Source of the DNA: a virus
Reading direction: 5' to 3' (one strand)
IMG/VR virus record: IMGVR_UViG_3300043446_004967
Location: 32,001-96,000 of that record
Length of the DNA: 64,000 nucleotides
The translations under genes and the position numbers were made by a program. Positions 2,448 to 38,633 of this stretch are shown here, piece after piece. Below the pieces are notes generated by a model, which saw only the letters and a list, made by a program, of their open reading frames with translations, did no database searches and was not told where the DNA came from. Positions within the stretch are counted from its first letter, which is position 1, and each line of letters begins with the position of its first letter.

Positions 2448-2544
2448 TGCGGCGGAAGCGAAAACTCCCTTGCTCCCGCCTCGTTTTCTGTGTTACCCTG
2501 TGGTTTGAACTCAGTTCAGGGGTAGTCGCATGACTGCCGGAGGA

Positions 2545-2573
2545 AAGGCCGTCCAATGTGGGCGGCCTTTTTT
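2545..2573 (+). terminator. Intrinsic terminator
   Basis: aaggccgtcc-aatgt-gggcggcctt followed by a T-run. Confidence 0.7.
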
Positions 2574-2587
2574 CTTTTCCTTGTTGC

Positions 2588-2616
2588 TTGACGCACGACA
2601 AGCCTTAGTGTACGGT
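2588..2616 (+). promoter_or_regulatory. Sigma70-like promoter
   Basis: TTGACG-17nt-TACGGT upstream of the 2676 operon. Confidence 0.55.
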
Positions 2617-2675
2617 TAGAGGAGCCGCAGTCTAGGCGGCGTGGAAAAAACAAAAAATCAAGGAATAGAAAGAAA

Positions 2676-3020
2676 ATGTCTAATACGCTCTTTTCAGCGG
2701 ATATTAATTACGACCCGTCTCGGGAAGCGGCGGAGATGGCGCTCCACATGGCGCACCTCGCTTATTTCTCTGACCGTCTTACGGAGGCAAGTCAGCATTT
2801 GATGACGGCGCTGGTCTACAGACTTATGCTATACGGAGGGGCCGCGCAGAAGACGAAAGAGGTTGTCGCGGTTCTCGAAAAATGGTACGAGGAGTACGCG
2901 ACCCCGGGTTCCCAAGTAGCAGAAATGCTGGAGAATGTAAGAAATTATGTAAACAGCGTGCCCGAAAAACCCAAAAAGTTCTATCGCCCCGGCGAGGAGC
3001 AATTATGCAGCGGCTCATAG
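2676..3020 (+). CDS. Hypothetical helical protein
   Basis: ORF with purine-rich RBS. Confidence 0.6.
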   Translation: MSNTLFSADINYDPSREAAEMALHMAHLAYFSDRLTEASQHLMTALVYRLMLYGGAAQKTKEVVAVLEKWYEEYATPGSQVAEMLENVRNYVNSVPEKPKKFYRPGEEQLCSGS

Positions 3021-3211
3021 GCTCTTGGGCTGACTCCTGCCGTGCAATAACGGTGGGGGACATGTTAATTCTTCTGGGCGTACTCGTGGCTACACTGGCA
3101 GCCTTACGCTACGGGATGCGCTGGAGCAAAAATGAGGTTTTCCGTGAGGCGTTACCCTCAATTCTTTTTGTATGGCTCTGCATTGGAGCGTCGTGTGTAG
3201 TGGTGTTCTAG
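3005..3211 (+). CDS. Small membrane protein
   Basis: Two hydrophobic segments. Confidence 0.5.
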   Translation: MQRLIGSWADSCRAITVGDMLILLGVLVATLAALRYGMRWSKNEVFREALPSILFVWLCIGASCVVVF

Positions 3212-3241
3212 TGCAATTGGAAAACATAAGGAGGGAGAAGC

Positions 3242-3685
3242 ATGTTGTTTATTTTTGATCTCGACGGAACATTGGCGGACATACGGCACCGGCGGCATTA
3301 CGTCGAAAGTCCCCCGAAAAGGTGGGCGCAATTCTTTGCAGAATGTACGGAAGACACCCCTAAAAAAGACGTGATCGCCGTGTTGGAGTCGTTGAGACGC
3401 GCGGGAGCTGAAATCCGTATATGGTCCGCGCGCCCCGAAAGCACTGCGGAGGCCACGAAAGCGTGGCTGGCCCGACATATTAAAGGGGGCGACGAACTTC
3501 CTTTACGTCTCCGACAGAAAGGGGACTTCCGCCCTGACGCGGAGATCAAGCAAGAGTGGCTTAGGGAACTTACGCCGGAGGAGCGTGAAAGGCTGCGAGG
3601 GATCTTTGATGACAGAGACATTGTTGTTCAGATGTGGCGCTCGAACGGCGTCACCTGCTTTCAAGTAGATAACTACGAGAACTAG
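3242..3685 (+). CDS. HAD-family phosphatase (PNK 3'-phosphatase-like)
   Basis: FDLDGT motif I, WSAR, FDDR motifs; strong RBS. Confidence 0.85.
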   Translation: MLFIFDLDGTLADIRHRRHYVESPPKRWAQFFAECTEDTPKKDVIAVLESLRRAGAEIRIWSARPESTAEATKAWLARHIKGGDELPLRLRQKGDFRPDAEIKQEWLRELTPEERERLRGIFDDRDIVVQMWRSNGVTCFQVDNYEN

Positions 3686-3698
3686 ATAAGGAGGCCCC

Positions 3699-4511
3699 AT
3701 GCCGGTATATTTAAACGGCACGTTAATTGAAAAGCGGTATTATCCGTGCGGGGAGATCTCAGTGAGACTGGACGACCCCGCCCTTGCCTCACAGGGGAAT
3801 ACCCTGCGGGTCGACTATAAGGACTCTGATGACATCATTCAGATGCTGCTAGTCGCGGACGCAGTACGTAGAGTAGCCCCCGACAGGGCACTCTCTCTTG
3901 TCCTTCCGTACATCCCTTACGGCAGGCAGGATAGAGTCTGCCACCCTGGGGAACCTTTTTCGCTTAAAGTTTTGGCGGATATTATTAACGTCCAGAACTT
4001 TACCGCAGTGTACACGGTAGAACCGCATTCTGTGGCGTCGGCTAACTACATTCACCGCCTTTGCTCAGTAAGCGCGGCGACGTTAATCACCTACGAGGAT
4101 GGGAAAGGCGTGCGCGACCTGATACGGGAGGAAACCCCCGTGCTGCTCTCTCCCGATAAAGGCGGGAGGCAGCGGGTACTTGAGGTGGCGACCGCACTGG
4201 CCCAACACAATATCGTCTGTGCCGCCGCATACGCCGACAAGCGTAGGGAGGACGGGCAGGTAACGTTTACCCACGTGCCGGAAATTTGCGCCGGGAGAAA
4301 TATCTTGGTCATAGACGACATTTGCGACGGCGGGGCAACGTTCCTAAAGTTGGCGGACGCCTTACAAGAGCGCGGAGCGAGGGATCTTTACTTGTATGTG
4401 ACTCACGGATTTTTTACAAAAGGAACCGAGGAGTTACTTAAAAAATACAAAAAGATCTTTTATTACAAAGACTACCAACACATTGCCATATTGGAGCAAA
4501 AAAATGCGTAA
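3699..4511 (+). CDS. PRPS-like protein (likely NARP1 Adps, ADPR-PP synthetase)
   Basis: PYIPYGRQDR, SPDKGG, VIDDICDGGATF, YVTHG motifs; adjacent to NAMPT-like gene. Confidence 0.88.
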   Translation: MPVYLNGTLIEKRYYPCGEISVRLDDPALASQGNTLRVDYKDSDDIIQMLLVADAVRRVAPDRALSLVLPYIPYGRQDRVCHPGEPFSLKVLADIINVQNFTAVYTVEPHSVASANYIHRLCSVSAATLITYEDGKGVRDLIREETPVLLSPDKGGRQRVLEVATALAQHNIVCAAAYADKRREDGQVTFTHVPEICAGRNILVIDDICDGGATFLKLADALQERGARDLYLYVTHGFFTKGTEELLKKYKKIFYYKDYQHIAILEQKNA

Positions 4512-32211: not shown

Positions 32212-32520
32212 TTAATCCGCTTCTCGCGGCCACATCCCAGAACGTTTAAATTCATTCCATTTTTGGAGCCAACGCAGTTCCACAATGGGACGGGTGACAA
32301 GGTTCAGGCTTTTCCATGCGTCTGAAGCTTTAAGCTTTGCCATAAAGAAATCCGCCTTTTGAGGGCGTATGTATTCATCCCCCGTCATCAATTCGTCCGC
32401 CAGTTTCATGGCGTTTTCGATTTGCATATAATATTTATTATTATTGCAATCATATTGAGCAAAGCGCGGGCGGCCTTTGCTGTCCAAATCGACGGCGGCG
32501 TTGTTGTTGTTATTTTCCAT
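32212..32520 (-). CDS. Poly-Asn N-terminal protein (paralog A)
   Basis: MENNNNNAAVDLDSKGRPR...SLNLVTRPIVEL. Confidence 0.7.
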   Translation of the reverse strand: MENNNNNAAVDLDSKGRPRFAQYDCNNNKYYMQIENAMKLADELMTGDEYIRPQKADFFMAKLKASDAWKSLNLVTRPIVELRWLQKWNEFKRSGMWPREAD

Positions 32521-32910: not shown

Positions 32911-33375
32911 CTAGGCAGCGCGCCTGGATTGCCACAGGCGTACCGCCGCTTTTCTGTTAGATATCGAAACCCCGTTTCTTTTTAATACCCGACACCCTTC
33001 AGATATTGCGGTAACTTCGCTTCCATAATAGGCCGCTTCAATCTCGCGCGCCCACTCCTCCAATTTAGCGTTGTACGCAGCGATTAACGCCGGGGCCTCG
33101 GCCTCAGCCTTTTGCTTGGCCCGCGCCTCCGCCTCGGCCTTTTCTTTTCTTTCTTTGTAAAGTTTGGGTACCAAATCCCAGCTTTGGGGGGTTTGGCCCT
33201 CGGTCACACCCTTTATGAACTCTTTAAAACTCCCCTCTTTTCCGTGTTCTATCATGAATGATAAATGAGCAAGGCTCATCTTCATTATCATTTGATTACC
33301 TTTTTCAGACCCCGAAAAAGCTTCCATGTACATGACGGCGAAATGGGCCGTAAGAGCAAAGTCTTGGGTTCCCAT
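32911..33375 (-). CDS. Hypothetical protein
   Basis: Start after the promoter at ~33422-33450. Confidence 0.6.
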   Translation of the reverse strand: MGTQDFALTAHFAVMYMEAFSGSEKGNQMIMKMSLAHLSFMIEHGKEGSFKEFIKGVTEGQTPQSWDLVPKLYKERKEKAEAEARAKQKAEAEAPALIAAYNAKLEEWAREIEAAYYGSEVTAISEGCRVLKRNGVSISNRKAAVRLWQSRRAA

Positions 33376-33403
33376 GATTTTCCCCTTTTTTGCTTCTAAT
33401 TTG

Positions 33404-33571
33404 TTTTTTTCTTCTAAAACCAGCCTACCCTCTTTCTTGTCGCTCGTCAAGAGACAAATTTGGCGAACACATAAAAAAACCGCCCCGTGCCCAGAGCGGT
33501 TCCCTTGTAAAGGTTTCTTATTCCTTCCGGATGAAGCCCAGGATAAGGCCCGGCGCAGCGGAGTCGAACCC
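33404..33571. repeat. 168-bp direct repeat, copy A (Ro60 3' end + terminator + promoter)
   Basis: Near-identical to 35493-35660. Confidence 0.92.
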
Positions 33572-34537
33572 GTGACGCGCAGTACGAGACTTGACGGAAG
33601 TAAATTTTTTGTACCTCACTAAGAATTTAACTAAATTTTTATCTATCTCCTCCTTAGGCGGAAGGTCTATAGGAAGTAGCGCGTCTTTCTCCGCGCTGTG
33701 CCGCATTTCCTTTTTCCTCTCGAAGTCAACACAGACACTTTGGTCCGCCGCCCAAGTCAGGCGGGCGCCCTCACGGGTTTTGCCGCGTCGGCCCAGACGG
33801 CCGATCTTTTGGGCGATTTCCAAACCACCGTCCAGATCGTTCACTGCGAGGATAAGATTCTCGCACGGAAGGTTCACGCCCTGCTGGGCGATGTTGGACG
33901 TAATCAGCGTATTAAGTTTTCCCCTTCTAAATTGCAAAAACTTAGTGAATATGTCGTATTCACTTCGCCGCCGGTCCGCGACGGCAAATTTTTCACCCAT
34001 CTTAGATAAAACGCCCTGCCAGTAATCCACGTCTCGCCATGACGTGCACAAAATTAAGGTCGGCACCTGACCGATCCGCTCGGTCGCCTCAGTCAAGTCG
34101 ATTTGCTCCTTTTGCGCCATCGGCGGGGCCGGCAACTCAACAACTCTATCCTCCTTTGGAATTTCAAACGGAACAGTTGCTGAAAGGCAGGTTACTTTTG
34201 TCTCGCCTTTCCGGCACGCCGCCATCAATGCGCGTAGGTGGACGCGCTGGCCCAAATACTCCCCGTCGACCCAATGCGCCTCGTCGATTATGACGGTTTT
34301 GTATTTTTTTACCGCCGCTAGACTGAGCGCCTGATAGGTGGCAAAAAGATTTCTAGTTCCCTCAATATGAGCCACACCCGTCTTGAGGGCGTCCCCTTCT
34401 CGCCCATAGTCAAGCCACGCCTCCATGGCCAAGAGTCGCGTCGGGGCCAGAAAGGCGAAAGGGGCTTGCGCCTCGCTAATCGCCTTGTAAGTTTTACCAG
34501 ACCCTGTAGGCCCGGTAATCCATGTGATTTTACTCAT
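33518..34537 (-). CDS. Compact SF2 (Suv3-like) helicase
   Basis: GPTGSGKT, APTRLLAME, IIDEAH, SAT, QGVNLP, QKIGRLGR. Confidence 0.85.
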   Translation of the reverse strand: MSKITWITGPTGSGKTYKAISEAQAPFAFLAPTRLLAMEAWLDYGREGDALKTGVAHIEGTRNLFATYQALSLAAVKKYKTVIIDEAHWVDGEYLGQRVHLRALMAACRKGETKVTCLSATVPFEIPKEDRVVELPAPPMAQKEQIDLTEATERIGQVPTLILCTSWRDVDYWQGVLSKMGEKFAVADRRRSEYDIFTKFLQFRRGKLNTLITSNIAQQGVNLPCENLILAVNDLDGGLEIAQKIGRLGRRGKTREGARLTWAADQSVCVDFERKKEMRHSAEKDALLPIDLPPKEEIDKNLVKFLVRYKKFTSVKSRTARHGFDSAAPGLILGFIRKE

Positions 34538-34934
34538 CCTCATCCCCCGCCCTCGTTCGGAAGTCATCCCCGAGCCATTCGACGACTCGGTTAAATTCCA
34601 GCCCCTCCGCCTCCCTAGGCCATTCGACATGATCGGCTCTTCGGAAGAGGTTCCATTTTCGGAGTAAACAAAGCTCCACAATTGGCCTCGTCACTAAATT
34701 GAGCGAGGCCCAGCAAGACGATTTCTTTAGGGTATCAATCAATTCTTGTCCCGATCTAGGGCGAACATGAGGATCGCCGTCCATTATTTCGTCGGCTATA
34801 TTCAATGCTGTATTGATTTGCCTATAATATTCATTATTATCGCAATCATATTTACAAAGGCGCGGGCGGCCTTTGCTGTCCAAATCGACGGCGGCGTTGT
34901 TGTTGTTGTTGTTGTTGTTGTTGTTATTTTCCAT
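34530..34934 (-). CDS. Poly-Asn N-terminal protein (paralog B)
   Basis: Longer AAC tract; same motifs as 32212..32520. Confidence 0.7.
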   Translation of the reverse strand: MENNNNNNNNNNNAAVDLDSKGRPRLCKYDCDNNEYYRQINTALNIADEIMDGDPHVRPRSGQELIDTLKKSSCWASLNLVTRPIVELCLLRKWNLFRRADHVEWPREAEGLEFNRVVEWLGDDFRTRAGDEDE

Positions 34935-34947
34935 TTCGCTTCCCCTT

Positions 34948-35211
34948 TTATGGATTTTTGTCAAATTTGGTGTATTTTTTTGCCGCAGCAGCAAAATCGG
35001 CTGCCTTTTCGGCGTAAAGCGGGTCAAAGTTAGCCGCCTCCGCCATCTTCACCGCCGCTTCCCGGAAGCGGTATTGCGTGAACAAAGCCAGCGCAAAGAG
35101 GGCCTTGGCTTGCGCTGCCCGCTGGACCGCGCGCCGCGCCTCCTCCATTGCCTCCTGCTCTAACTCCAGCATCCCCCCCGCACCTCTCGCGGAACCCTCC
35201 ACAGGCATCAC
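34948..35211 (-). CDS. Small TPR-like protein
   Basis: AKALFALALFTQYRFREAAVKMAEAANFDP. Confidence 0.5.
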   Translation of the reverse strand: MMPVEGSARGAGGMLELEQEAMEEARRAVQRAAQAKALFALALFTQYRFREAAVKMAEAANFDPLYAEKAADFAAAAKKYTKFDKNP

Positions 35212-35223
35212 CTTTCCCCCGCG

Positions 35224-35472
35224 TCAGTTACTTTTTAGTCGTTGATCGTACTCATCAACGAACTTTTGAAAGTATGGCGCGAGTGACCCCGCGTTAGCCA
35301 TACATTGCCGCGCCTTACTCAGATCACCCCGCTGTTCGTGCGTTCGCGCCAGCCAGTATTCGGCAGCGCAGCTCGCGGCCACTGAGCGCTGAAAACATTC
35401 GTCAGCGCTCATCGCCGGCGTAAATGCCAGCTCCGCGTAAGGCCACCTCTTTCTACGGAATAATGAAAACAC
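35224..35472 (-). CDS. Small TPR-like protein
   Basis: AEYWLARTHEQRGDLSKARQCMANA. Confidence 0.5.
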   Translation of the reverse strand: MFSLFRRKRWPYAELAFTPAMSADECFQRSVAASCAAEYWLARTHEQRGDLSKARQCMANAGSLAPYFQKFVDEYDQRLKSN

Positions 35473-35492
35473 TTACCTGTAACCCCTTTTTC

Positions 35493-35660
35493 TTTTTTTC
35501 TTCTAAAACCAGCCTACCCTCTTTCGTGTCGCTCGTCAAGAGACAAATTTGGCGAACACATAAAAAAACCGCCCCGTGCTCAGGGCGGTTCCCTTGTAAA
35601 ACCCCCTTATTCCTTCCGGATGAAGCCCATGATAAGGCCCGGCGCAGCGGAGTCGAACCC
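35493..35660. repeat. 168-bp direct repeat, copy B
   Basis: Near-identical to 33404-33571. Confidence 0.92.
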
Positions 35661-36308
35661 AGATACCCCGAAGGACAACGGGTCTTTCGGGTCCGCTACG
35701 GATCCCCTGTTCGCGGCAGCCGCAAGAACCACCAGCTTGGCCTTCGGGTGGCTCATGCGCAGAAGATCCCGCAAGGTCCACTCGTTGCGATTGTAGTATT
35801 TAAGTGCCTGCCAAACTAACGCCTCGCCGGACTTCTCAGTAAACCAACGGGCGACCGCATCCCGCAAACCGCGACCCCATCCCCGCAACTTGTCCGAAAA
35901 ACTTACAAACATTAGAATGTCGGTGCCCGTGCGGGCGACCGAGGGCAAGGCAGCTAAGGCCAGCCCCTTCGCCTCCGGCGTGGAGCACGACGCGACCAAC
36001 GCTAAGGCAAAGATAACAGTATCCCGCTTCGCCGCCCTGCCGGCCATGCTGATCTCTACGATACGCGCGATAACGCGCACTGCGTCCCGCTCACACAATG
36101 TGAGCAGGATTATCGCGTTCTCTTTAGTCAATGCCTCCGGACGCACGTAATACGTGCCGTTTTGCGATCCCGTTGTTAAAAAACGGTCCAACTGCTCCCA
36201 CGGGTCCACCTCGTAGTAGGCGCCCCCGGCATTATTGGGGACTTGCCCCGGCAGAGGCTTTTTCGTAGAAAGCCCGCTCCCGCGCAAAATATCGCCATAC
36301 TTCGTCAT
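35607..36308 (-). CDS. Ro60/TROVE (Rsr) homolog with a large in-frame internal deletion
   Basis: QVPNNAGGAYY..LDRFLTTGSQNGTYY, ARTGT, GWGRGLR, KY..R.EWTLRDLLRMSHPK joined directly to the C-terminal AKLVV..SVADP.D..GFDSAAP. Confidence 0.9.
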   Translation of the reverse strand: MTKYGDILRGSGLSTKKPLPGQVPNNAGGAYYEVDPWEQLDRFLTTGSQNGTYYVRPEALTKENAIILLTLCERDAVRVIARIVEISMAGRAAKRDTVIFALALVASCSTPEAKGLALAALPSVARTGTDILMFVSFSDKLRGWGRGLRDAVARWFTEKSGEALVWQALKYYNRNEWTLRDLLRMSHPKAKLVVLAAAANRGSVADPKDPLSFGVSGFDSAAPGLIMGFIRKE

Positions 36309-36432
36309 TTTTTACGTCCTCTTTTCTCTTGTGTGCAGGCGTAACCCTGCACTGCCGCACGCTCAGCCGTCAACTACGGGAACCGCGAATAAGGCAAAAT
36401 GAAAAAAACGAGGGGGGTGGAGAAGAAAAGGC

Positions 36433-36533
36433 GCGGGGCACGCTCAGCAGAAAAGCGATTAATAGCAGACGGCAATGCTGCTAATAAAACTGCGACTGTC
36501 ACACAGTGGCTTGCTGCTGGTCTGGTGCCCCGC
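36433..36533 (-). ncRNA. Structured RNA element 4 (long closed hairpin, different class)
   Basis: Terminal stem GCGGGGCAC/GTGCCCCGC with internal hairpins. Confidence 0.5.
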
Positions 36534-36543
36534 ATAAAAGTAA

Positions 36544-36628
36544 CTCTAAACGAATTAGACATGCTTGTCGCACAGGAGCATATGATTACAAGTCATAACC
36601 TATGCGCTACGGCCCAACCCGTTTAGAG
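36544..36628 (-). ncRNA. Y-RNA-like (Yrl-type) element 3
   Basis: Closing stem; GGGCCG...GGUUAU...AUGUC; UAUGA-CUUGUAA-UCAUA hairpin. Confidence 0.7.
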
Positions 36629-36636
36629 ATACGGTA

Positions 36637-36717
36637 TAAACAAACTGGACATTAGTTGCCCACAGGAGGGTATGTATTTCAAGGACATAACCTGCGAGCA
36701 TCGGCCCAGTTTGTTTA
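36637..36717 (-). ncRNA. Y-RNA-like (Yrl-type) element 2
   Basis: 12-bp closing stem; GGGCCGAUG...GGUUAU...AUGUCC. Confidence 0.7.
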
Positions 36718-36719
36718 AG

Positions 36720-36802
36720 TATCGGGCATAAATCACCAGCCGGAGAGGGCGCAAGGCCCCATTTAGTATCTTGAATGATAACCAGCCGGTAGCGGCTCGA
36801 TA
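36720..36802 (-). ncRNA. Y-RNA-like (Yrl-type) element 1
   Basis: Closing stem; GAGCCG...GGUUAUC...AUGCCC. Confidence 0.65.
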
Positions 36803-36808
36803 AAAAGA

Positions 36809-36837
36809 ACTCTATCGCAAAGCCCCGAACGACGCAA
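36809..36837 (-). promoter_or_regulatory. Promoter of the Y-RNA/Ro60 operon
   Basis: TTGCGT-17-TAGAGT immediately upstream of element 1. Confidence 0.6.
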
Positions 36838-37055
36838 GCTTTTTTTGAAAAAAATCAGCCGAACGCCAGTGCAATTTTTACTATACTATAGTCTAATAGG
36901 TATGTATCTAATTGAGGTTACTCTCGCCTAAGCGAGAGTAACCTACGTGGCGTGGCCTTACGGTCGAGAAATATACCACAATTACGGCGCCGCCCGAGGC
37001 GACGCGCTTAAATTCCCATTTACTATCTACTATTTGCCGGAAGGGAGACGGCCCG

Positions 37056-37538
37056 TTAACGGATAAGCCCCGTTCGCACGTATAAATGCAAATCCTCCGG
37101 AAGCTCCTGTACCTCCCGGCTCTCCATAAAATAACGGTAAGCCGCCTTTCCCGCCGCTTCAACCTTCTCTCTCTTATCCCAGGAAAAATCCTCTGGGCTA
37201 TGCCATGAGGACCAGCCAATGGAGACAATGTAAACTGGCCGTGCCTTGCACGTAAACGAAGAAAACTCCGAACTCGCCCCGTTCTCCTTCAAAAATGGCA
37301 GACAGTAACGTTTAGCCTCGTCGCGTAGTAGCAGCGCGGGAGATACAAAAGCGTCAATGTAGTGCCCGTGGCCCGGAAACTCCGTCGTCAAAGACACTAA
37401 AGCCGTCTGAGCCGCGTTATATACGGCTGAGTATGCCTTATTAAAATCGGACTCCCCTTTCTCGGAGAGGAAGCGGCAAGAGAACCTGTCTAACCGTAAT
37501 AATCCGTCGACCTTATCGGAGGAAATGAACACCGGCAT
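37056..37538 (-). CDS. Hypothetical protein
   Basis: ORF with RBS. Confidence 0.55.
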   Translation of the reverse strand: MPVFISSDKVDGLLRLDRFSCRFLSEKGESDFNKAYSAVYNAAQTALVSLTTEFPGHGHYIDAFVSPALLLRDEAKRYCLPFLKENGASSEFSSFTCKARPVYIVSIGWSSWHSPEDFSWDKREKVEAAGKAAYRYFMESREVQELPEDLHLYVRTGLIR

Positions 37539-37568
37539 ATGCCTATTACCCTTTTTTGAAACTAAAAA

Positions 37569-38633
37569 CTAAGTTAAAAACATACGTAGCACATTTAACG
37601 CTACGTAATACGCTAGATTGCAGGGCACTGCGTTACCTATTAATCGAAACGCAGCGGAATTACCGCAGTCTATGGCAAAGTCGTGCGGAAAGGTCTGTAG
37701 GGCCAAGGCTTCGTCCACCGTTAACCTACGCAAGTCCGGAGGAATCTGCGACGCCGCATAGGGCGCCCCGCCCCGCACTAAGTGCGAATGGTAGGAGGAG
37801 ACCCAGTCCTCGGCGTCGGGGTCGGCTAGCCTCCGCCCGTCGATGATCGGTGTCTTGTTGCCACCCAACGACGCGCATAACGTCGGAGCGTAGCCTTCAA
37901 GATTGATAGGGCGGCCGGCCCCGTTAAACAGCATTCCCGCATAAGGAGACCGGCGAATAATCGGGTTGCGCGCGGGCGTAATCACCGCGTTGCACGTCCG
38001 CAAATTATTACCCTCCCCCGCAGGGGCTAAGTGTGCCAACGCCTGCCTGACCGTAGGCCCTTCCTCACGTAAGGGCCAAAAAAGCCCGGAAGATGCATAA
38101 GGGGCACGCAGCCTTCCGCCGCATCCTTCGGCTATATCAGAGCTGACCCCCACTAAAAAACAACGAGCCCTAGTCTGAGGCACGCCAAAATGAGACGCGC
38201 ATAATACGTCCCAATGTACGTAATACCCTAGAGCGTTAAAAGCACGGCTCAGGAGTTCCCGCAACGAACGCCACTTACGTAAGTGGTAGAGCGCCGCGAC
38301 GTTCTCCATGACGAACGCCCTAGGGCGAACGGTGCGTACCGCCGCTACAAACGCCCACACAAGTGCGCTCCTGACGTCCTCCGGGTCCATTTTACCCGCT
38401 ACGGAAAACCCCTGACAAGGAGGCCCCCCAAAAACTAAGTCAACCTCCCTATACGCAGCTAACGCGGGCAAAAATGCACGAACATCGCCGCAAGCGATGT
38501 TCCCTAGTCCGTTCTCCTCGTACACTCGACAGGCAACGGGGTCTACGTCATTAGACCACACAACGCCAACGCCCGCCCGCCTGACCCCTAAGTCCATGCC
38601 TCCTGCACCGGAGAAAAGTGACACCGCGTACAT
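37569..38633 (-). CDS. C5-cytosine DNA methyltransferase (orphan)
   Basis: FSGAGG, GGPPCQ, ENV, QTRAR, GNAV motifs. Confidence 0.95.
   Translation of the reverse strand: MYAVSLFSGAGGMDLGVRRAGVGVVWSNDVDPVACRVYEENGLGNIACGDVRAFLPALAAYREVDLVFGGPPCQGFSVAGKMDPEDVRSALVWAFVAAVRTVRPRAFVMENVAALYHLRKWRSLRELLSRAFNALGYYVHWDVLCASHFGVPQTRARCFLVGVSSDIAEGCGGRLRAPYASSGLFWPLREEGPTVRQALAHLAPAGEGNNLRTCNAVITPARNPIIRRSPYAGMLFNGAGRPINLEGYAPTLCASLGGNKTPIIDGRRLADPDAEDWVSSYHSHLVRGGAPYAASQIPPDLRRLTVDEALALQTFPHDFAIDCGNSAAFRLIGNAVPCNLAYYVALNVLRMFLT

What the first reader, a model, noticed from the sequence alone, without database searches (positions are those of the whole stretch)
35607..36308. Mini-Ro60: in-frame deletion ending right after the Y-RNA-binding helix
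The protein is 233 aa against roughly 500+ for Ro60/Rsr. The N-terminal HEAT region runs through WTLRDLLRMSH, the motif holding Ro60's Y-RNA-contacting Arg/His. It then fuses at 'PK' (~35742-35747) to the last ~44 aa, removing the rest of the ring and the vWA MIDAS. RBS, frame and promoter are intact, which suggests a minimal RNA-binding/protecting module or a dominant-negative of host Rsr.
Basis: partly seen in the sequence, partly recalled or inferred. Interest (0 to 1): 0.85.

Follow-up and report, generated by a model that had tools for sequence, protein, structure and literature searches.

The report
Phage Ro60 gene with internal deletion
A freshwater phage carries a Ro60 RNA-binding gene that has lost its middle 300 codons in frame; it keeps the half that docks Y RNAs, but no other sequence found has this deletion, so it is more likely a recent accident than a designed mini-protein.

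Summary
ORF 35607-36308 (-) encodes 233 aa. Residues 20-191 align to Xenopus Ro60 13-191 and residues 189-229 to Ro60 493-533. The nearest full-length relatives are 537-538 aa (74-79% identical). The missing ~300 codons occur nowhere else in the 110,897-bp phage genome. The retained half holds the invariant basic residues and His187, which the literature ties to Y-RNA binding. The rest of the HEAT ring and the vWA/MIDAS core are gone.

The allele is a singleton. It has no counterpart among 5.8 billion protein clusters, 1.84 billion representatives or 354 GenBank phage records with Ro-like genes. Other broken Ro60 genes do exist, each with its own junction. The junction lies in a short stretch (P-K/Q-A-K) that relatives carry at both breakpoints, which suggests slippage or illegitimate recombination.

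A relative-rate test shows no acceleration (19 vs 16 unique changes), so the deletion is either recent or tolerated. AlphaFold with an alignment models residues 1-185 well (pLDDT >90) and the tail poorly (56-78).

Best reading: a real, recent, one-off in-frame deletion of an accessory phage Ro60 that cannot do ring-dependent work. Residual binding to the three Y-like RNAs encoded upstream is possible but untested. The scan had already noted this same stretch in another window of this genome.

The parts
35607..36308 (-). Mini-Ro60 ORF, 233 aa plus stop
   Evidence: ORF list. Pfam TROVE + vWA_Ro60. PDB Ro60 matches. phrog_850 RNA-binding protein.
35742..36308 (-). N-terminal part, residues 1-189: two short N-terminal strands plus about ten HEAT-type helices. 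It includes the conserved R142, R146, R149, K170, R174, R180, R184 and H187.
   Evidence: Aligns to Ro60 13-191. The model with an alignment has pLDDT >90 over residues 21-185. Foldseek 9nep/1yvp: 183 columns, rmsd 2.5. VIA-align 2nvo: Z 20.0. Invariant columns are listed.
35736..35747 (-). Deletion junction, codons P188-K189-A190-K191 (CCG AAG GCC AAG)
   Evidence: Alignment with P0179, P0173 and P0053. DNA read.
35607..35741 (-). C-terminal tail, residues 190-233 plus stop: the last strand(s) of the vWA domain and the terminal helix of Ro60
   Evidence: Aligns to Ro60 493-533. 87-91% identical to the end of P0179/P0047. pLDDT 56-78.
36317..36322 (-). Ribosome-binding site AGAGGA
   Evidence: Read from the sequence.
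35562..35590 (-). Intrinsic terminator (GC-rich hairpin followed by a T run) after the stop codon
   Evidence: Sequence. Terminator-like match in cmscan alignments. Conserved in both copies of the repeat.
35489..35660 (-). Copy B of a 172-nt direct repeat: the last 17 codons of mini-Ro60, the terminator and a promoter cassette
   Evidence: the repeat finder D1, 94% identity. Alignment. Cassette core at 35527-35547.
33400..33571 (-). Copy A of the same repeat. It gives the DEAD/Suv3-like helicase ORF (33518-34681) the Ro60 tail GFDSAAPGLILGFIRKE.
   Evidence: No helicase homologue carries this tail.
36432..36837 (-). Upstream array of structured RNAs: three ~85-nt units plus a 117-nt hairpin. 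These are candidate partner RNAs and are a separate finding of the scan.
   Evidence: Fold z-scores -2.3, -5.9, -5.2 and -4.8; whole region z -8.2. Shared G(G/A)GCCG...GGTTAT...ATG(T/C)C. No Rfam match.

Best explanation
This is a lineage-specific deletion allele of an accessory phage Ro60 gene. One deletion of about 900 bp joined codon ~189 (just after the His187 helix) to codon ~492 (just before the last vWA strand) of a 537-538-aa ancestor. It probably arose by slippage or illegitimate recombination between two short similar stretches (…H-P-K-A… and …N-P-K/Q-A-K…). It happened to stay in frame. The product cannot form the closed HEAT ring or the vWA/MIDAS domain. The ring-dependent activities of Ro60 are therefore lost: threading RNA 3' ends through the cavity and feeding PNPase. 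The product keeps the Y-RNA docking helices and may still bind the stem of the Y-like RNAs encoded upstream. Nothing shows that this shortened form was selected. Shown: homology, the deletion limits, absence of the middle part from the genome, uniqueness in the collections searched, and the retained residues. Inferred: the mechanism of the deletion, its recency, the loss of function, and any residual RNA binding.
For: Two-segment match to Ro60 with nothing in between. The closest relatives are full length, and one of them (P0179) probably sits on the same 14,352-bp contig as a homologue of the neighbouring helicase. This suggests a related phage with the ancestral state. It is a singleton: only P0001 itself covers the query in one stretch among 1.84 billion representatives, among proteins of 128-408 aa in 5.8 billion clusters and in 354 GenBank phage records. 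No viral-contig relatives were found. Ro60 genes break sporadically elsewhere. P0228 and P0207 carry other in-frame internal deletions. Several frameshifted copies lie on long contigs. Microbacterium phage SM23 has a split gene, while its relative FuzzBuster has an intact one. The ratio of frameshifted to in-frame cases is roughly what random indels would give. The junction residues are shared by both breakpoints in relatives. The adjacent helicase carries a recombination scar made of the Ro60 3' end, so the region has been rearranged more than once. The tail is modelled with low confidence. Mini-Ro60 has non-conservative changes at two near-invariant columns, L46T and G176E.
Against: The ORF is intact and has a good ribosome-binding site and terminator. 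The relative-rate test shows no acceleration against its full-length sister (19 vs 16 unique changes, p 0.61; tail 2 of 44). This also fits continued purifying selection. All invariant basic residues and His187 are retained. The upstream RNA array is intact and strongly structured. The retained pieces may form one coherent sub-structure: in xlRo60-type proteins the N-terminal strands pair with the C-terminal part of the vWA domain (PMC12135203, discussion). The public collections hold few relatives of this phage, so 'unique' is weak evidence.
Confidence: 0.55

Rival explanations
1. Functional minimal Ro60. The half-ring, capped by the retained C-terminal strands and helix, is a stable protein. 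It binds the stem of the three tandem Y-like RNAs through the His187/basic surface. It stabilises, shields or presents them, for example as a ring-less RNP that occupies host PNPase, as phiLo Ro60-Yrl complexes attenuate PNPase.
For: Intact ORF, ribosome-binding site and terminator. Conserved RNA-contact residues. No rate acceleration, and the tail is at least as conserved as the N-terminal part. Confident model of residues 1-185. The tail helix is placed beside the last HEAT helix (VIA-align: model 13-232 versus Ro60 5-228). Structured RNA array directly upstream on the same strand, with a GGGCCG motif that recalls GGUCCGA / GNCGAA (PMC4201824, PMC11277228). The Y-RNA stem docks on alpha8/alpha10 in phage phiLo Ro60, which lie in the N-terminal half (PMC12135203).
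Against: No second example in any collection. Single-sequence folding fails (pLDDT 44). Confidence in the alignment-based model is borrowed from full-length homologues. The tail has pLDDT 56-78. G176E and L46T fall at near-invariant positions. No Rfam Y RNA or YrlA match in the window, although the YrlA model does detect one next to a 54%-identical full-length Ro60.
Confidence: 0.3
2. Dominant-negative or decoy of a host Rsr. The fragment competes for host Y RNAs (or for Rsr partners) without being able to form a working ring, and so disables host RNA quality control.
For: The Y-RNA docking surface is retained without the ring or vWA domain. The phage genome encodes no PNPase or RtcB of its own, so any effect would fall on host factors.
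Against: The host is unknown, and so is whether it has Rsr. The phage brings its own candidate RNAs, which argues against targeting host Y RNAs. A singleton allele. No experimental precedent was found in the papers read.
Confidence: 0.07
3. Assembly artefact, or a minor deletion variant in a population whose main genotype has full-length Ro60.
For: Both runs that hold the sequence come from the one sample that may be the source of the contig. Laying their contigs gave no cover over the junction.
Against: The shared stretch at the junction is at most about 12 nt, far below assembler k-mer sizes. 98-99% of sampled 31-mers of 35300-37100 are present in Logan's own contigs of the runs. The exact protein is recorded on two contigs. 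The flanks are continuous and in frame.
Confidence: 0.05

Closest known systems
Ro60 / Rsr (Xenopus Ro60 1YVP/1YVR, human Ro60 9NEN, Deinococcus radiodurans Rsr 2NVO)
   Same: Clear homology. The N-terminal 170-180 residues are 38-40% identical to vertebrate Ro60 and superpose at rmsd 2.1-2.5 Å. The terminal 41 residues align to Ro60 493-533. K170, R174 and H187 are conserved at the same numbering.
   Different: About 300 residues are missing (Ro60 ~192-492). There is no closed ring, no central cavity and no MIDAS motif. The protein is 233 aa instead of 520-540.
Phage Ro60 homologues (phrog_850; mycobacteriophage, Streptomyces and Microbacterium phage 'Ro-like RNA binding protein'; Thermus phage phiLo Ro60, 9L5Y/9KOP)
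   Same: A phage-borne accessory Ro60 gene with small structured RNAs encoded next to it. It matches phrog_850 (E 1e-20).
   Different: Most of the listed records annotate it as a Ro-like RNA-binding protein; only FuzzBuster's (525 aa) was measured here, and the phrog_850 profile has 476 positions. phiLo Ro60 binds Yrl RNAs with a CGAA motif, whereas the RNAs here carry GCCG(A/U/C) and match no Rfam family.
Other broken Ro60 genes (P0228, P0207; Microbacterium phage SM23)
   Same: The same gene family, damaged internally, with N- and C-terminal parts still recognisable.
   Different: The junctions differ: Ro 205-421 is lost in P0228, ~305-455 in P0207, and SM23 has frame breaks. None shares this junction. 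None was checked for phage origin except SM23.

Membership tests
Ro60/Rsr (TROVE + vWA ring proteins) | Sequence homology to the TROVE (HEAT-repeat) domain | tested here: met
   Pfam PF05731 at 53.5 bits (cut-off 23), but only profile positions 2-175 of 442. phmmer versus 1yvp: E 1e-36.
Ro60/Rsr (TROVE + vWA ring proteins) | Complete set of HEAT repeats forming a closed toroid with a central RNA-binding cavity | tested here: not met
   Ro60 residues ~192-360 have no counterpart in the ORF or anywhere in the phage genome.
Ro60/Rsr (TROVE + vWA ring proteins) | vWA domain with a MIDAS motif (DxSxS...T...D) | tested here: not met
   Only profile positions 121-165 of 165 of PF25045 are present. 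The DVSGSM columns, nearly invariant in the 58-sequence alignment, are gaps in this protein.
Ro60/Rsr (TROVE + vWA ring proteins) | Residues implicated in Y-RNA and RNA binding (H187; K170/R174; the basic surface of helices 8-10) | tested here: met
   H187, R184 and R149 are invariant; K170, R174, R180, R142 and R146 are nearly invariant. All are present. Their roles are taken from PMC11277228 and PMC12135203. Binding itself was not tested.
Ro60/Rsr (TROVE + vWA ring proteins) | A Y RNA gene next to the protein gene on the same strand | tested here: inconclusive
   No Y_RNA or YrlA match at E <= 10. No GNCGAA motif on the coding strand between 36309 and 37055. Three structured ~85-nt units with G(G/A)GCCG lie 120-530 nt upstream on the same strand.

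The most novel reading that the evidence does not exclude
A naturally minimised Ro60. The Y-RNA-docking half of the ring is held together by the N-terminal strands and the retained C-terminal strand and helix. It works without ring or MIDAS as the protein partner of three tandem phage Y-like RNAs, for example to stabilise them or to present them to host PNPase or nucleases. That would separate Y-RNA binding from cavity function in nature.
Probability: 0.25. Interest if true: 0.75.

Novelty: new variant of a known kind. Interest (0 to 1): 0.4.

Why it matters
Suppose the shortened protein folds and binds the neighbouring RNAs. It would then be a natural minimal Y-RNA-binding module. That would show that Y-RNA docking can be used apart from Ro60's ring, and it would give a small handle for studying what phage Y-like RNAs do. 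If it is a fresh deletion, as the evidence slightly favours, the value is smaller but real. It adds to signs that Ro60 is a dispensable accessory gene in phages that breaks repeatedly. It also marks this RNA-metabolism region of the phage as a recombination hot spot built around repeated terminator-promoter cassettes.

Tried and rejected
The DNA of the closest relatives (contigs of P0179/P0328, P0173, P0047) could not be fetched. There is therefore no DNA-level junction analysis, no synteny and no dN/dS.
- The search for related loci in viral contigs found nothing with mini-Ro60, P0173 or the helicase as query.
- The one metagenome scan gave a single 54%-identical locus, L002.
- megablast of 33000-38000 against GenBank phages found no match.
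- Sequencing runs: two DNA runs of one freshwater sample, which may be the source. No RNA holder was listed.
- Read laying placed only contig pieces at the 172-nt repeat and gave no cover over 35666-37100, so it is uninformative about the junction.
- Rfam at gathering and at E <= 10 found no Y RNA or YrlA in the window.
- My first idea was that the ORF's 3' end (GGTTCGACTCC) is a tRNA or Y-RNA T-arm overlapping the gene. I rejected it: ARAGORN and Rfam find nothing there, the stem does not pair, and the peptide is the genuine Ro60 C-terminus.
- Single-sequence AlphaFold gave pLDDT 44, which is uninformative.
- The apparent 98% one-piece coverage in Microbacterium phages FuzzBuster and SM23 is not a shared deletion. 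FuzzBuster's gene is 525 aa and SM23's is split.
- Stein et al. 2005 and Sim et al. 2009 are not held in the library.

Full report
**What is there.** The window is bases 32001-96000 of a 110,897-bp IMG/VR virus record with direct terminal repeats. The record comes from a freshwater metagenome. Genes in this region all run on the minus strand.

ORF 35607-36308 (-) encodes 233 aa. An AGAGGA ribosome-binding site precedes it, and a GC-rich hairpin with a T run follows it.

Pfam finds TROVE on residues 24-191, but only profile positions 2-175 of 442. It also finds the Ro60-specific vWA domain on residues 185-230, but only the last 45 of 165 profile positions. Against solved structures, residues 20-191 align to Xenopus Ro60 13-191 (E 1e-31) and residues 189-229 to Ro60 493-533.

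**Closest relatives and limits of the deletion.** The nearest proteins are full length:
- P0179, 538 aa, 79% identical over the retained columns.
- P0173 and P0053, 537 aa, 74% identical.

Searching the whole phage genome with P0179 returns only residues 1-190 (77%) and 491-537 (87%), both inside this ORF. A permissive tblastn with residues 186-495 finds nothing (best E 0.63). The gene is therefore not split or rearranged; about 300 codons are simply absent.

At the first breakpoint relatives read LSH-P/A-K-A/P. At the second they read N-P-Q/R-A-K-L. The phage reads SH-P-K-A-K-L. The junction thus falls in a short stretch that both sites share. This is what a slippage or illegitimate-recombination deletion would leave. 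That mechanism is an inference from protein sequences, because the relatives' DNA could not be fetched.

**What is kept and what is lost.** The deleted part contains the second half of the HEAT ring. It also contains the vWA core with the nearly invariant DVSGSM MIDAS motif.

Kept are the two short N-terminal strands, about ten helices, the last vWA strand(s) and the terminal helix. Every invariant or near-invariant basic residue of the retained helices is present: R142, R146, R149, K170, R174, R180, R184 and H187.

- H187S abolishes Y-RNA binding by mouse Ro60 (PMC11277228).
- In Thermus phage phiLo Ro60 the Y-like RNA stem docks beside alpha8 and alpha10 through R137, K141, K142 and R178, all in the N-terminal half (PMC12135203).
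- The same paper notes that the terminal helix belongs to the HEAT scaffold. It also notes that xlRo60-type proteins use N-terminal strands together with the C-terminal part of the vWA domain to close the ring.

It is therefore conceivable that the retained N- and C-terminal pieces still pack together.

**Structure prediction.**
- Alone, the sequence gives an uninformative model (pLDDT 44).
- With a 58-sequence alignment of full-length homologues, residues 21-185 reach pLDDT above 90 and the tail reaches 56-78.
- The model superposes on Ro60 over 183 columns at rmsd 2.5 Å.
- VIA-align gives Z 20.0 to D. radiodurans Rsr and 16-17 to vertebrate Ro60. The tail occupies roughly the place of the next HEAT helices (model 13-232 versus chain 5-228).
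- This confidence is borrowed from full-length proteins and does not show that the fragment is stable.

**Is the deletion found elsewhere?** No.
- Among proteins of 128-408 aa in 5.8 billion clusters, only the protein itself combines both Pfam domains at this length. The other short hits are contig-end fragments or frameshifted copies with junk tails.
- In an exhaustive phmmer search of 1.84 billion representatives, only the protein itself covers the query in one stretch. All strong hits are 500+ aa with two stretches, or are N-terminal fragments.
- In GenBank phages, 354 records carry a Ro-like gene and none has this deletion. The two apparent one-piece matches are a 525-aa gene (FuzzBuster) and a split gene (SM23).
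- Viral-contig scans found no relatives.

Two other internally deleted Ro60 proteins do exist. P0228 equals Ro 9-204 plus 422-527. P0207 equals Ro 19-~300 plus ~455-536. Together with the frameshifted copies on long contigs, they indicate that Ro60 genes break sporadically, each in its own way. The in-frame cases are a minority, as chance would predict.

**Is the remnant decaying?**
- A Tajima-type relative-rate test used P0173 as outgroup. It gives 19 changes unique to mini-Ro60 against 16 unique to its full-length sister P0179 (p 0.61).
- The tail has 2 unique changes in 44 residues, against 17 in 189 for the N-terminal part. There is no acceleration.
- This fits either a recent deletion or continued constraint, and it cannot separate the two.
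- Mini-Ro60 does carry two non-conservative changes at columns that are 98% conserved in the family, L46T and G176E, plus L185M. P0179 has milder ones, V84I and P188A.

**Context.** Directly upstream on the same strand (36432-36837) lies a strongly structured region: z -8.2 overall. It contains three ~85-nt hairpin units (z -2.3, -5.9, -5.2) and a 117-nt hairpin (z -4.8).
- The three units share G(G/A)GCCG, then 9 nt, then GGTTAT, and later ATG(T/C)C.
- G(G/A)GCCG at the top of the terminal stem recalls the GGUCCGA of metazoan Y RNAs and the GNCGAA of YrlA (PMC11277228, PMC4201824).
- No Rfam family matches.
- By contrast, the YrlA model does give a sub-threshold hit (E 7.5e-7) upstream of a 54%-identical full-length Ro60 in locus L002.
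- These RNAs are plausible partners but are unproven. They are a separate finding of the scan.

Downstream, a 172-nt direct repeat (35489-35660 and 33400-33571, 94% identical) comprises the last 17 Ro60 codons, the terminator and a promoter cassette. The core of that cassette occurs seven times in the genome.

Copy A gives the DEAD/Suv3-like helicase (33518-34681) the Ro60 tail. Helicase homologues instead have longer, acidic C-termini and never this tail, so it is a recombination scar.

The best helicase homologue, P0328, lies on a contig of 14,352 bp. That is the same length as the contig of full-length P0179. It is probably one related phage fragment with both genes intact. The phage genome has no RtcB and no PNPase.

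**Verdict.** The most economical reading is a single, fairly recent, in-frame deletion in an accessory gene, in a region that has been rearranged at least twice. It removes every ring- and MIDAS-dependent activity and spares the Y-RNA docking surface.

That the product is a selected 'mini-Ro60' remains possible; I put it at about 0.3, plus 0.07 for a decoy role. No second occurrence or direct test supports it.

It is a new variant of a well-known protein kind, of moderate interest. The interest would rise sharply if the same junction turned up in other phages or if the fragment bound the upstream RNAs.

The reports available to me did not include any earlier check of this stretch. The scan had noted the same stretch in another window of this genome.

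Noticed in passing
window 33518-34681 (-) and 33400-33571: A DEAD/Suv3-like helicase ends in the Ro60 C-terminal peptide (GFDSAAPGLILGFIRKE) through the 172-nt repeat. Its homologues (P0328-P0333) have longer acidic C-termini and never this tail, so it looks like a recombination scar that replaced the native end.
   Followed up: partly
window 36432-36837 (-): Three tandem ~85-nt hairpin RNAs and a 117-nt hairpin lie upstream of mini-Ro60. They are strongly structured (z down to -5.9) and share G(G/A)GCCG-N9-GGTTAT...ATG(T/C)C. Units 2 and 3 carry 7-9-nt loops that look like anticodon loops. No Rfam family matches.
   Followed up: partly
window 35527-35547, 33438-33458 and five further sites in the genome (G000:C1 54996, 50135, 50211, 51482, 57215): A promoter-like cassette, TTTGTCTCTTGAC(G/A)AG(C/A)GACA, has its -35 box inside a palindrome. 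It occurs seven times within 3 mismatches, against none for the reversed control pattern.
   Followed up: partly
window 36333-36352 (-): A stable 7-bp hairpin (GTGCAGG-gttacg-CCTGCAC) sits just upstream of the mini-Ro60 ribosome-binding site. Its function is unknown; it could be a processing site or a 5' stabiliser.
   Followed up: no
window 32212-32520 (-) and 34530-35027 (-): Two paralogous small ORFs with an Asn run (poly-AAC/AAT) share 72-80% identical DNA segments (repeats D2, D4, D5). This is another sign of segmental duplication in the region.
   Followed up: no
L013 (Microbacterium phage SM23, PQ655446.1) 2498-4072: The Ro-like gene of this cultured phage is split into a 273-aa piece and a 158-aa 'hypothetical protein'. 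They are 90% and 94% identical to residues 1-263 and 368-525 of the intact 525-aa gene of phage FuzzBuster.
   Followed up: yes
proteins P0228 and P0207 (public metagenomes): Two other Ro60 homologues carry in-frame internal deletions at different positions: Ro 205-421 is lost in P0228 and ~305-455 in P0207. Both also keep the N-terminal half and the C-terminal end.
   Followed up: partly
L002 1364-1426 (+): A sub-threshold YrlA match (41 bits, E 7.5e-7) lies about 200 nt upstream of a 550-aa full-length Ro60 that is 54% identical to mini-Ro60. The Rfam model therefore works on relatives, yet finds nothing in the window.
   Followed up: no
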